Origin: Eledone cirrhosa
Taxonomy: Eukaryota
Direction of reading: 5' to 3'
Assembly: GCA_964016885.1 (NCBI GenBank)
Contig: OZ024751.1
Coordinates: 2,852,001-2,916,000, forward strand
Length of the DNA stretch: 64,000 bases
Of the stretch, positions 15,876 through 57,360 are shown in pieces (positions within the stretch are counted from its first letter, which is position 1; every line of letters begins with the position of its first letter). The position numbers and the translations under genes were made by a program. Under the pieces are notes generated by a model. It saw nothing but the letters and a program-made list of their open reading frames with translations. It ran no database searches and was not told where the DNA came from.

Positions 15876-16170
15876 AGTTAGTTAGATTAATAACCGGATG
15901 ATTGTTTATTTGTTTATTGTCAAAGCTCTTTCGTCACACATTATGTGACCCTCTCAGTGACTACCTTTGTTATTTTGTTCTGTCCTACAGCATCTTGTTT
16001 TTGTGTGTGAGCTGTGAGCACACAGCTCACAGCAACAAGATGATGTAGGACAGAACAAAGGAGAGACTCAAAATAACAAATTAGTCACTGAAGAAATCAC
16101 ATAATGTGTGACGAAAGAGCTTTGAAAATAAACAAATAAACCACCATCCGGTTATTATACTAACCAACTG
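15876..16170. repeat. Head-to-head palindrome carrying two degenerate type I HHRs (- 15919-15961; + 16084-16125)
   Basis: Consensus GTCA-CTGAAGA-R-GTCACAT/AAT/GTGTGAC-GAAA-GAGC-TT-TGAC; each arm has a different lesion. Confidence 0.75.
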
Positions 16171-16194
16171 GAAATTGATAATAAATAATATACG

Positions 16195-16940
16195 TATATA
16201 TAATACTGAAACGAAGCTGTCGAAAGGACAGATACACCTTCAGTCGTTTTCCCAGTCACTCAATAATTTAATTAAGTCAGTATTAATAAGACACCAACCC
16301 CAGGAAATTAGAGTGGAAATATAAGTTAAATAGTGAGAAAAACGATTTCATGTGAGTAAAAATTTGATTTTCGGACCAATGCATTTGTTTCTGCAACTCC
16401 AGCTGCTAGAGACAGTCCAAATGGATCTACCACGCACAGAGATTAGGTAATGCTATTCAGCATTGGCTAAGAGTTACATGATCAGTGGGAAATTATACAC
16501 TCCGGAATAGATCAGCTACCAACTCACTGTTCTGATGTAGGTAAACTCAACCTTCAGTGGTATGGGACTTGACAGCGAAGAGATGGTAAGCAATTTCTGA
16601 CTAATCACAGAGGACACGTTGGCACGTATTCCAATTGATAAAATGAAAAAGGGCGATGAAGCACTCAACTAAGGCCTCCATATATAAAGCGAAGACATAA
16701 TTGCAAACAATTAATAAATAAATCAAACTATAATAAACAGTAAAAAAGTTCAACTTACAATTTGAATGCGGGTTATTCCCGGGAGTTTGAAAAAATAATA
16801 CTGAAACGAAACTATCGAATAAGGCCGATACACCTTTGGCCGTTTTCCCAGTCACTCAATAATTTAATTAAGTCAGTATAATTATGGCACCAGCCCAAGG
16901 AAATTAGAGTGGACACTTAATTGTTAAATAGTTAAAAAAA
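16195..16940 (+). repeat. Diverged ~140-bp direct repeat pair (16195-16340, 16795-16940)
   Basis: Shared ATAACTGAAACGAA...TTTCCCAGTCACTCAATAATTTAATTAAGTCAGTA...GGAAATTAGAGTGGA. Confidence 0.7.
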
Positions 16941-17006
16941 ACTATATGAAAACTTGACACCTCGTCTATACTTATTAGTAATTATATATATATATGTATA
17001 TATATA

Positions 17007-53750: not shown

Positions 53751-53889
53751 CTAAATCTATATTAAACTCTAAAGGAATATCAAATAGAATTTCTACTCTA
53801 TCATATAATGAAACCTTATTTAACAGTAATTGGCAATACTATAATGAGGCCTTAGTTAGATCAGGCCATAAAAATGAAATTAAATTCTT

Positions 53890-56830
53890 AATGTTAACAT
53901 CCCTGGACGCGCTCATCACTAAGATCAAGAATGACCCACACCTCTTCGTTATCTCTGACAAAACTAAGAAGCTGTATAAGATGGACGTGAATAAGTACAA
54001 AAAATTCATTTATAACAAATTACACAACAATTATTAACACACATTAGTACCTTAAACGACATTAATAGAGTAGGGAAAGATATAGTGACTAGCTTAGACA
54101 TAGATAAGTACACTAACCCATATGTTCCTATGATACCTAAATTCTCTCTTAAGAATCACAAATGTAACTTTAATGAAAGCCCCTCTATTAGATTAATATG
54201 TCCCTCTACATCAGATATAGGTAAGATTAGTAAAGTGATCCTCGATAGAGTAATACTTGAACTTAATAGCAAAGCTATTAAGTTCAAGTATTGAACTTAA
54301 TAGCTTTGCTATTAAGGTCTGTCTCTGGAGCAACACCGACCAGGTCATTAATTGGTTCACCGAGTTGCCTGATAAGACAACACTAAAGTTCATCCAGATT
54401 GACATAGACAACTACTATGCCTCTATCCCCCCCATACTCTTAAACAAGGCCCTTATTCTAGCTAGATCTAACACTAGCCTCACTAAAAAAGAGATAGATA
54501 TAGTACTAGCAGCACGCAGAACTATTATCCATTTTGAGGGTTCCCATTGGACCAGAACCAACCGTCCTGATAACTTCGATATCACGATGGGGTCCAGCGA
54601 CTCGGCGCAAGCGACCGACCTGGTGGAATATACCTGCTCCATAGACTTAGGGACGAGATCCCGGTCCTACAAGGAGGTGCATATAGGGACGACGCCTTAT
54701 TTACCGTTAGAAAACCATAGCCCCCGCAGGATTGCGACCTTAACAAGCGCATACACAGGTTCTTCAAGTCATACGGCCTATCCGTAACTATAGATCTCAA
54801 CCACCAGATAGTCAACTTCCTGGACGTGATCCTGGAGTTGGGTACGGGCCTGTACAAGCCATACCGGCGAGATTCTATCATCCAACCACCCTAAGTCTAC
54901 TCTCAACTCCATAGTATATAGCATATCCCATAGGATCTCGAGGCTTTCTACCAACGAGGATATTTTCAACCAAGCGGCCGACTACTACAATAAAGCCTTG
55001 GTAGATGCCGGATATAACCGAATAATCTCCTACCCCCTTAACGCTAACTCTAGAAACCACCTCTTCATAGGACTAATGTTATAGTAAGCCATACCTATAA
55101 CCGAATACGCAGCGGTCATGATAGAGTCAACAACTATAGTAAAGAGAATCGCACTAAGAAACACGGCCGTAGCGTTAACTACATTGGTGGAGGTGTAGAA
55201 GACCTACCGCATAATAAGGGTCATGATAGGGACAACGGTAGCTGCTGTAGCCTACAAGAAGTATTCCCTACCTATAAGATTAACAATAGTGATGGCCTAT
55301 TACGTACACCCTCCAACCGGCGTTTAGCTACACACAAACATAACGGAAGGAAGGCACTTGCACCCGAGCATAAAGCGAAGGGGACCCGCAGTAGGCTCCA
55401 GCACAGCAGCAATAATAAGAACGGTTACCTAGCCAACACGACCCGTAGTAAGCCCACAGCTACGCATAACCGCCAACGTAATGTCCTATGGTTCCATCCT
55501 CCCTACTCTTGGAGTGTGGCCTCTGACTTACCCAGGATATTTTTCGCAGCCTTAGAGAAGAACTTCCCACCCGACCTCAATAAGAACAATATTAAAATAT
55601 CCTTCTCCTCTACACCTAATCTAGCAGACATTATAGGGATAACTAATTACAGTAAGCTCACCAAAGAACGGCACCATAGCAGCGATAAGTCTAGACTTGA
55701 CAGCAACCCTAATAGCCTTAACATTACCCTAGCAGCACCCGACAGTGTTTGCGGCAGCTCCAACAGACACAACCGACATAACCGCGGCGAAACTGAGGTC
55801 CATGCTGGTGACGAGGCGGGAACAGAAGGCGCTGTGGCGTGCGGATGATAATAGTACTACCCCGCACGCAATAGGATATAATAGTACTAACTACAGAGAT
55901 AGTGGCGGTGGCGTGGATAATAACATAGGTAGCGATAGTAATGGCCTTATTTCGGGCACTAGGAACCACCGTAGCGGCAGCGACCGCGACCGACAATGCA
56001 ACTGTCGAGATCAGGGAAGCTGTCCGCTCAGGGGAAGTTGCCTGACAGATAATGTTATTTATAGGTGCACCATAACTAGCCATAATCGCGTCAAGCATTA
56101 TATAGGGGCCACCTCTGGCTCGTTCAAACTAGATTTCGAACACATCTCCACTCTTTTAAAAACAAGAAGCTAAGATACTCCACATCACTCACCAATTACA
56201 TCACAACATTAAAAGTCTCCAACATTAGCTTCTCCACATACTGGGAAATTGTCAGCAGAGCAACACCGTACAGCTTCAAGAGGATGTGCGAGCTCTGCTT
56301 CATGGAACTTTACCATATCATAAGAGCACCCCTAGGGCTCACCAACAGCAGAGCAGAATCTGTGATAAACTGCAGACACAGAATACAGCAGTCATTCCAT
56401 AGTTGGACCCCGGTTGAGAACTGAACACCATAAACTGGGCCCCCCCTGCACCAAACCATAACGCGCCGGTGGGTAGGCTGCTTAACTAAACATCTGTACA
56501 CCAACTATGCCTCTCAGATCCGGCCTGACTGGGCAATAGTAAAGTAGCACCCATAAAATAGTAATGGAAAACAACCATCATGCGAACGCATAATAAGCCA
56601 TTTGGGGACATTTATTCAAACACCGGCCAGAGTTACTCCCCTTGCTCGGTGACAATAACAACATGTTTGTTTGAATCAAAAATGAACTTTGATGTGCCTA
56701 TCACTTTAAAACCCCTTCTGAGTTCTGTACTGAACACTCTCTAGACTAGTATGCCCTTGAAAAGCCCTGTTCGGGCGAAACGTACGTAGGTGCTTTTGCA
56801 TAAACATGTTCTAACAGTATGTATTCTCCT
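53890..56830 (+). mobile_element. Decayed PLE (RT + GIY-YIG) with 3' HHR, ending at (TA)n
   Basis: SDKT, RLICP, IDIDNYYASI, FDITMGSSDSAQ, YRDD (other frame), VNFLDV, CNCRDQGSCPLRGSCL..VIY..HYIGAT, CELC. Confidence 0.85.
56752..56792 (+). ncRNA. Variant-core hammerhead (CUUGAAAA) at PLE 3' end
   Basis: TGCC-CTTGAAAA-GCCC/TGTTC/GGGC-GAAA-CGTACG-TA-GGTG. Confidence 0.65.
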
Positions 56831-56908
56831 TTGTAATCCTTTCATTTATATATATATATATATATATAAATTAGAATTGGAACTCTGAAATAGCAATATA
56901 TATATGGA

Positions 56909-57360
56909 TGTATATATAATGTATTTTGCAATACACTTTATGCTTAATTAAAAGCATTTGGAAGACCGTAAGCTATTGTTTTAAAGTAGTGACAAATTCA
57001 CTTACTTTGATCTCAGCAAACAGGGGGAGATAAGCCGACAAGGCCCCTGTTTCGCTTTGGTTGAAGCTTATCAAGGCTAACTACCCTTCCTGTCTACCGA
57101 GATCAACCGATCTGCATAATCAGCTCCTGATTATTTACTAGATTTCTATAAGAATATAACATCAGTGATCTCGGTAGACAGGAGGAGTAGTTAGCCTTGA
57201 TAAGCTTCAACCAAAGCGAAACAGGGCCTCGTCGGCTTATCTCCCCTGTTTGCTGAGATCAAAGTAAGTGAATTTGTCACTACTTTAAAACAATAGCTTA
57301 CGGTCTTCAAAATGCTTTTAATTAAGCATAAAGTGTATTGCAAAATACATTATATATACA
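56909..57360. repeat. Head-to-head palindrome with two variant-core HHRs (- ~57033-57079; + ~57192-57238)
   Basis: AGC-CTTGATAA-GCTT..AAGC-GAAA-CAGG..CTTG-TC-GGCT; downstream AAGTAAGT donor-like site; arms 56909-57105 / 57166-57360. Confidence 0.78.

What the first reader, a model, noticed from the sequence alone, without database searches (positions are those of the whole stretch)
15876..57360. Five independent head-to-head ribozyme palindromes with the same polarity
At 15876-16170, 26103-26337, 46738-47186, 49930-50635 and 56909-57360, unrelated sequences share one architecture. The minus-strand HHR (3' half only at 26.1 kb) is on the left arm, the plus-strand one on the right, 5' ends meet at the axis, and 3' ends point outward, mostly into TA-rich tracts. 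Inverted pLTRs are known for Penelope, but here they are ORF-less. Inference: both ends of a break prime reverse transcription of the same short RNA (bidirectional TPRT), producing MITE-like ribozyme-bearing foldback elements. Transcription in either direction would give a long dsRNA hairpin containing a ribozyme, a likely ADAR/siRNA substrate.
Basis: partly seen in the sequence, partly recalled or inferred. Interest (0 to 1): 0.8.

Follow-up and report, generated by a model that had tools for sequence, protein, structure and literature searches.

The report
Penelope-type insertions, one tail each
The five mirror-image repeats are ordinary truncated insertions of Penelope-like jumping genes and their small ribozyme-bearing passengers, but across the genome nearly every such insertion has one short and one long end, which likely means both sides of the cut DNA start copying the same RNA at two fixed points.

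Summary
The five palindromes are real, and a sixth (17006-20388) was missed. Each arm belongs to a multi-copy family. Two families are truncated 3' ends of protein-coding Penelope-like elements (PLEs): one Neptune-like, one with Hydra-clade motifs and a 742-aa ORF. A third extends at least 1.1 kb upstream, with no ORF found. Two (and the sixth) are ORF-less tandem retrozymes. They are not MITEs. Head-to-head inverted copies, an optional tail and (TA)n targets are already published for PLEs. Among 173 loci, 89 are head-to-head and 2 tail-to-tail, and the axis differs per insertion. The added result: in 69 of 72 scorable two-armed insertions, one arm ends at the family's short site and the other at its tail site. 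A held-out sixth family agreed (12 of 15, none long/long). Arms share source variants, and in many loci each arm holds sequence the other lacks. This favours two cDNAs primed from both ends of one cut over the published fold-back idea, and ties animal retrozymes to PLE machinery. No long reads or RNA data were available. The scan noted similar palindromes in another genome.

The parts
15787..16017 (-). Family 1 left arm: pLTR of a Neptune-like PLE running into the ORF start (MTLPKYNN-like); hammerhead core at 15957 with a deleted base
16021..16186 (+). Family 1 right arm; core CTGAAGA at 16088 with damaged stem II; ends 67 nt short of the left arm, at an off-site position
17006..19940 (-).
19941..20388 (+). 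Family 6 right arm, core at 20138, long (tail) end at +250, followed by (TA)n
25819..25917 (-). Family 2 tail of the left arm, displaced by a later SINE-like insertion (about 25918-26090)
26087..26223 (-). Family 2 left arm; core CCGACAA at 26222 (family majority CCGACGA)
26224..26347 (+). Family 2 right arm; starts just inside the core, so 3' half only; short end
46443..46540 (-). Family 3 tail of the left arm, displaced by a SINE-like insertion (46541-46725) with a duplicated target of about 20 bp
46726..46955 (-). Family 3 left arm: pLTR of a Hydra-clade-like PLE; intact minimal type I hammerhead at 46835
46954..47187 (+). Family 3 right arm; intact core at 47088; short end; TA-rich flank
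49927..50235 (-). Family 4 left arm: part of a 472-bp tandem retrozyme unit; core with C3U at 50056; ends at an off-site TA-rich stretch (+128)
50228..50812 (+). Family 4 right arm, 1.24 units; full type I hammerhead at 50508 that folds as such; long (tail) end into (AT)n
56865..57105 (-). Family 5 left arm: part of a 316-319-bp tandem retrozyme unit; U3/A8 core at 57074; long end
57104..57373 (+). Family 5 right arm; U3/A8 core at 57197; short end into (TA)n
3516..8272 (+). Context, outside the finding: autonomous Neptune-like PLE (1225-codon open frame at 4063-7737, direct pLTRs with cores at 3852 and 8019), a relative of family 1

Best explanation
These palindromes are 5'-truncated insertions of Penelope-like elements and tandem retrozymes in (TA)n tracts, and they likely form when a Penelope protein dimer cuts both DNA strands and each free end primes its own cDNA at one of two fixed sites on the same source RNA. 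Shown from sequence: family identity, head-to-head polarity, TA-rich flanks, two fixed 3' ends per family (26-116 nt apart), one of each per insertion, variable 5' ends, and shared source variants between arms. Inferred: each TA-ended DNA strand anneals to an AU-rich patch at the short site (A) or the tail site (B). The cDNA started at B either stalls near A, leaving only an inverted tail, or displaces the A-primed cDNA and runs on, leaving a palindrome. The two cDNA 3' ends are then joined by microhomology or filler, and host repair fills the second strands. ORF-less copies arise by early termination, by priming in the 5' pLTR so that the cDNA runs off the transcript's 5' end (families 1 and 2), or from retrozyme RNA copied in trans (families 4-6). 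One RNA molecule versus two RNAs from one source is not resolved.
For: Polarity: 89 head-to-head, 2 tail-to-tail, 173 loci. Ends: A/B 69, A/A 1, B/B 2 after removing L017; 66 of 69 without the window's own copies; p about 5e-17 against 50:50 before that removal. Held-out family 6, predicted: 12 of 15 partners of a tail-ended arm end at the short site, 0 at the tail site. The A arm reaches further 5' in 40 loci and the B arm in 28; in the non-tandem families 21 of 37 A arms have at least 50 nt that the tail-bearing arm lacks. Shared non-CpG variants between arms: 42 vs 9.3 expected, 25 vs 7.3 and 21 vs 3.3 in the three young families; little or no excess in the two old ones (5 vs 2.6, 2 vs 1.4), which argues against ongoing conversion. 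Axis overlap of 2 nt or more in 23 of 48 vs 16.5% for random joins; 17 of 48 have filler. Six of 69 B arms are little more than the tail. In vitro, a PLE protein cuts and extends both strands, is predicted to be a dimer and starts at two internal sites that bound the tail (PMC11167929).
Against: All evidence is from genomic copies; no intermediates were seen. About half the loci (84 of 173) show no second arm within the sequence held, and a search for tiny inverted arms in 60 of them found no excess (2 opposite-site vs 3 same-site matches), so two-ended priming is not obligatory. 16 of 89 head-to-head loci have one end off both sites, including two of the five window cases. Two family-5 loci (L160, L161) have arms that share no variants, as two RNAs would give. 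The in vitro PLE initiated without homology to the target and with no strand preference for either site, so it does not itself predict the A/B pairing. No autonomous partner was found for families 2, 4, 5 or 6. Loci were the best-scoring (youngest) copies, not a random sample.
Confidence: 0.62

Rival explanations
1. Fold-back/self-priming: one strand (antisense RNA, as proposed in PMC3846280, or the first cDNA) snaps back at the axis and is copied, and a staggered endonuclease cut of the hairpin then leaves one long and one short end.
For: Explains the polarity, the shared variants between arms, the axis microhomology and, through a staggered cut, exactly one tail. PMC8557442 suggests that the tail comes from EN-mediated resolution.
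Against: A fold-back puts the loop on the first strand, so a fixed cut geometry ties the longer 5' arm to one end type. Observed: 40 A-longer vs 28 B-longer, mixed in all five families. 20 of 48 axes have no overlap (17 filler, 3 blunt). Both ends merge into TA at TA-like patches of the element, as primed ends would. Tail-only inverted arms are not copies of the other arm.
Confidence: 0.18
2. Two-ended priming with two separate RNAs, one per monomer, with dimer asymmetry fixing the A/B choice; arms look alike because both RNAs come from one locally active source.
For: Needs no strand displacement. Fits overlapping arms hundreds of nt long, and the discordant arms of L160 and L161.
Against: Arms of trans-mobilised retrozymes match in haplotype far more than arms from different loci (42 vs 9.3 shared variants), although several haplotypes were inserting. 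Tail-only B arms suggest blockage at A on a shared template.
Confidence: 0.17
3. Assembly artefact (fold-back chimeric reads) or chance juxtaposition of independent insertions in (TA)n.
For: No spanning long reads could be checked; (TA)n tracts do collect nested insertions.
Against: Arms differ by up to 11-14% in old families. Arms end at different fixed sites and each has unique sequence. Later SINE-like insertions sit in one arm only. There is no TA tract at the axis. Chance would give tail-to-tail and A/A or B/B pairs.
Confidence: 0.03

Closest known systems
Endonuclease-positive Penelope-like elements with an inverted 5'-truncated pLTR and tail (Arkhipova et al. 2013, PMC3846280; Craig et al. 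2021, PMC8557442; passages read)
   Same: Head-to-head inverted copy at the 5' end, tail on one of the inverted pLTRs, strong 5' truncation, (TA)n targets, hammerhead in the pLTR. L203 has the full textbook layout.
   Different: The papers call the tail optional, 30-40 bp, and give no counts in the passages read. Here it is 26-116 nt and present on exactly one arm in 69 of 72. The 2013 paper explains the inversion by self-priming on an antisense template, which these data disfavour.
Non-LTR retrozymes of animals (Cervera and de la Pena 2020, PMC7229834, passages; bioRxiv 10.64898/2026.07.22.740005, first fifth and passages)
   Same: Families 4, 5 and 6 are ORF-less, low-GC tandem repeats of 316-533 bp with one type I hammerhead per unit, as monomers to multimers.
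   Different: Neither text has 'inverted' in this sense (0 occurrences, and 1 in a reference title). Here they carry the PLE insertion signature: inverted arm, one tail, TA target. Circular RNA and self-cleavage were not tested.
PAc (Poseidon from Anolis) in vitro TPRT (Frangieh et al. 2024, PMC11167929; parts 1-2 of 4 read)
   Same: Both strands cut and extended, predicted dimer, two internal start sites bounding the tail, near the ORF start.
   Different: PAc starts without homology to the target and shows no difference between strands; here both sites are TA-like patches and are used as a pair.
L1 twin priming (Ostertag and Kazazian 2001; seen only as described in PMC2246262)
   Same: Both 3' ends of the break prime on the RNA; inversion; microhomology at the internal joint.
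   Different: In L1 the two pieces are different regions of the RNA (recalled: little or no overlap). Here the second site is fixed and the pieces overlap by up to about 1.5 kb or more, giving palindromes.
MITEs / foldback DNA transposons (recalled)
   Same: Short, ORF-less, long terminal inverted repeats.
   Different: The axis differs at every locus and the two ends are unequal, so the palindrome is not a unit that moves.

Membership tests
EN+ Penelope-like element (families 1, 3) | Single ORF with RT and C-terminal GIY-YIG endonuclease linked to the repeat | tested here: met
   Family 3: 742-aa ORF between pLTRs with YRDD and YVG motifs read from the sequence. Family 1: upstream sequence encodes a GIY-YIG-like C-terminus 54-57% identical to the window's 1225-codon frame, which has a weak RVT_1 hit, E 1.6e-4. 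Pfam and PDB gave nothing meaningful for the 742-aa protein.
EN+ Penelope-like element | pLTR-ORF-pLTR partial tandem, with an inverted 5'-truncated copy and a tail | tested here: met
   L203: inverted pLTR ending at the tail site, direct pLTR, ORF, pLTR ending at the short site
EN+ Penelope-like element | Hammerhead motif in the pLTR, minimal and dimer-type | tested here: met
   Cores with short palindromic stem III in families 1-3, as described in PMC4209133; no Rfam match
Hydra clade (family 3) | RWK and DKT motifs, CxCx5C linker, CxxC and CxH around the EN, no CCHH, (TA)n targets | tested here: met
   RWR (not RWK), DKT, CNCRNKSNC, CDLC and CRH in L195 vs PMC8557442 section 11; TA at both ends in 16 of 19 two-armed loci
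Hydra clade (family 3) / Neptune clade (family 1) | Placement in an RT phylogeny | not tested
   No reference PLE proteins were held; the Neptune label rests on the CxxC linker and CCHH-like residues seen and the description
EN+ Penelope-like element (family 2) | Linked RT-EN ORF | tested here: inconclusive
   Copies share at least 1.1 kb upstream; no collinear PLE ORF in 20 long loci
Non-LTR retrozyme (families 4, 5, 6) | ORF-less tandem repeats with a type I hammerhead in each unit | tested here: met
   Arrays L135, L137 (472 bp), L065, L062 (316-319 bp) and window 17006-19940 (533 bp); longest ATG frames 55 and 28 codons for families 4 and 5; family 6 frames not checked
Non-LTR retrozyme | Self-cleavage and circular RNA in vivo | not testable with these tools
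   No RNA holder listed
MITE / foldback DNA transposon | Fixed internal structure and equal terminal inverted repeats across copies | tested here: not met
   Axis differs per locus; ends unequal in 69 of 72

The most novel reading that the evidence does not exclude
Penelope-like elements integrate by fixed-site twin priming: one protein dimer holds one RNA with its two RT active sites at the short site and the tail site, primes both strands of a (TA)n cut, and displaces its own cDNA. The tail rule, the head-to-head palindromes and the tail-only inverted ends are then all one reaction, and animal retrozymes are integrated by this same machinery.
Probability: 0.45. Interest if true: 0.68.

Novelty: new member of a known kind. 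Interest (0 to 1): 0.42.

Why it matters
How Penelope-like elements make their tandem/inverted structures and tails is called undefined in PMC8557442. A near-strict one-short/one-long rule, with same-source arms that each carry unique sequence, is a genome-scale constraint that separates the proposed models. It can be tested directly in the existing in vitro PAc system. Seeing the same signature on ORF-less tandem retrozymes is mechanistic evidence, independent of phylogeny, that PLE proteins mobilise them. The palindromes themselves are not a new element class.

Tried and rejected
Rfam scan: no hammerhead family at E<=1, only TA-repeat microRNA look-alikes. Pfam and PDB sequence searches did not recognise the 742-aa ORF; Pfam missed the whole 1225-codon frame. 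Sequencing runs: no RNA holder listed and no long reads of this genome. Laying two contig sets, one Hi-C run and one RAD run on 50226-50795 showed the family in two other coded organisms but no strand-changing joint, which is no test of the palindromes. A search for tiny hidden second arms in 60 single copies found no excess. An autonomous partner for family 2 was not found; none was searched for specifically for families 4-6. Arm differences in the window show no A-to-G excess (few changes). Target-site duplications could not be scored inside (TA)n. MITE reading rejected (variable axis). Ongoing gene conversion as the cause of arm similarity is disfavoured, because old families are not homogenised. 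Literature searches found no paper that counts tails per insertion or applies twin priming to PLEs. Several older Penelope papers and all supplements were not seen, and figure S2 of PMC11167929 and figure 2 of PMC8557442 may bear on this.
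Full report
Observation. The window lies at G000:C11:2852001-2916000 of a 3.0-Gb genome. Inverted repeats are present at all five places. Arm identity is 88.7, 88.7, 97.7, 99.0 and 97.7%, and each would fold as a long hairpin (-180 to -567 kcal/mol). True extents are 15787-16186, 25819-26347, 46443-47187, 49927-50812 and 56865-57373. At 26 kb and 46 kb a SINE-like repeat (label recalled, not tested) interrupts the left arm and displaces its last 90-100 nt. 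Rfam reports no hammerhead. A sixth case, about 5.5 tandem 533-bp units facing a partial unit, spans 17006-20388.

What the families are. Each right arm has 1,296-2,571 first-look candidates in the genome (lower bounds, 40 scored each). Family 3 (47 kb) copies run from about 240 bp to several kb. They lead upstream through a 1.5-kb non-coding stretch into a 742-aa ORF with RWR, DKT, CxCx5C, CxxC and CxH motifs, which match the Hydra clade as described in PMC8557442 (section read). L203 is a full-length copy: inverted pLTR, direct pLTR, ORF, pLTR. Family 1 (16 kb) runs upstream into a GIY-YIG-like C-terminus and downstream into an ORF start, both related to the 1225-codon PLE frame at window 4063-7737. 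Family 2 extends at least 1.1 kb upstream without a recognisable ORF. Families 4, 5 and 6 form tandem arrays of 472, 316-319 and 533 bp; families 4 and 5 lack frames over 55 codons. They fit non-LTR retrozymes (PMC7229834, passages).

Polarity and axis. I annotated 173 distinct loci (36, 40, 34, 32 and 31 for families 1-5) after dropping 17 overlapping views of the same insertions. 89 have a minus-strand arm joined at the 5' end (gap up to 260 bp; up to 1,700 for three long loci); 2 have a tail-to-tail neighbour within 700 bp, neither abutting; 84 show no second arm in the sequence held, and some long family-3 copies run off it. The axis differs at each locus. Both outer flanks are TA-rich in 18 of 19, 15 of 21 and 16 of 19 two-armed loci of the young families 4, 5 and 3.

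One short end, one long end. Each family has two preferred 3' ends, A and B, 26-116 nt apart; both lie at TA-like patches of the element. Of 89 head-to-head loci, 16 have one end off both sites (several in family 1 are inverted internal fragments). Of the other 73, one search scored 70 A/B, 1 A/A and 2 B/B. L017 proved to read on into the ORF and was removed, leaving 69 of 72, or 66 of 69 without the window's copies. Independent choice would give at most half A/B. Single copies end at A 52 times and at B 23 times. I wrote the prediction down before examining family 6. Of 25 further loci there, 15 are head-to-head; the query selected tail-ended arms, and the partner ended at the short site in 12, off-site in 3, at the tail site in 0 (L240 and L255 are 6 kb apart and may not be independent). 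[quoted passage not shown]

Mechanism. A fold-back makes the second arm a sub-copy of the first and ties the loop to one end type. Instead the A arm reaches further 5' in 40 loci and the B arm in 28 (1 undetermined). In the non-tandem families, 21 of 37 A arms have 50 nt or more that the tail-bearing arm lacks. So both arms were templated separately. They still come from one source: shared non-CpG variants are 42 vs 9.3 expected (15 loci), 25 vs 7.3 (20) and 21 vs 3.3 (16) in the young families, with little or no excess in the old ones (5 vs 2.6 in 10; 2 vs 1.4 in 4), where conversion would have had longest to act. Axes overlap by 2 nt or more in 23 of 48 vs 16.5% for random joins, 3 are blunt and 17 have filler, some of which may be nearby mismatches. 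Six of 69 B arms are little more than the tail, as expected if the B-primed cDNA sometimes stalls at an A-primed hybrid. PAc protein cuts and extends both strands, is predicted to be a dimer and starts at two sites bounding the tail (PMC11167929). The best model is twin priming at two fixed sites, as in L1 (described in PMC2246262), but with read-through. Against it: half the loci are one-armed with no hidden second arm, two family-5 loci have discordant arms, and PAc showed no strand preference for either site.

Why ORF-less. Main-arm 5' ends cluster at -54 to -71 in 22 of 36 family-1 loci and at -17 to -29 in 17 of 40 family-2 loci (positions relative to the core; the family-1 query began at -64, but all-against-all alignment shows unrelated flanks there). 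The likely reason is priming in the 5' pLTR and run-off at the transcript start. That is inference.

Verdict. The added value is the quantified one-tail rule and its presence on retrozymes. Searches found no such count, but the library lacks several older Penelope papers and supplements were not read. Two earlier scan notes from another genome report similar palindromes and clustered 5' ends; they are unchecked and did not set the score.

Noticed in passing
window 17006-20388: Sixth head-to-head insertion: about 5.5 tandem 533-bp hammerhead-bearing units facing one partial unit; 4,077 first-look candidates in the genome.
   Followed up: yes
window 3516-8272: Autonomous Neptune-like PLE with an uninterrupted 1225-codon frame containing a long asparagine-rich stretch, like the N-rich inserts described for rotifer Penelopes in PMC3846280.
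   Followed up: partly
window 25918-26090 and 46541-46725; L077, L085, L091, L179, L019, L134, L156: Later insertions, SINE-like where inspected, repeatedly land in the tail at or just past site A of families 2 and 3, suggesting a preferred AT-rich target.
   Followed up: partly
window 57074 and 57197; family 5: Hammerhead core with U3/A8 in 44 of 45 arms and a C-U mismatch closing stem I; family 2 majority core is CCGACGA with a long stem II insert. Activity unknown.
   Followed up: partly
window 56024-56860: Remnant of another Hydra-like ORF end followed by a hammerhead-like 3' half near 56770; the family-5 palindrome sits in its TA end. L162 and L019 likewise sit in the TA end of Neptune-like copies: nested targeting may explain the clustering.
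   Followed up: partly
window 38559 (-), 26482 (+), 58029 (-), 32286 (+): Further single hammerhead-like motifs of other families, without an inverted partner examined.
   Followed up: no
window 58873-64000: Long G/T-rich degenerate tandem array (period about 37) with strong strand skew, running off the window end.
   Followed up: no
window 28339-30624, 40274-41233, 2142-3386, 9203-10048: Frames with RNase H/integrase-like, RVT_1 and PIF1 helicase matches: other retroelement and helicase-bearing transposon remnants.
   Followed up: no
L180: Nine extra tandem copies of a 50-bp piece of the family-2 tail in one arm, as if reverse transcription restarted repeatedly between the two sites.
   Followed up: no
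window 20641-21071 and 32464-33057: Two more palindromes (74% and 93% self-complementary), the second mostly TA/CA repeats.
   Followed up: no
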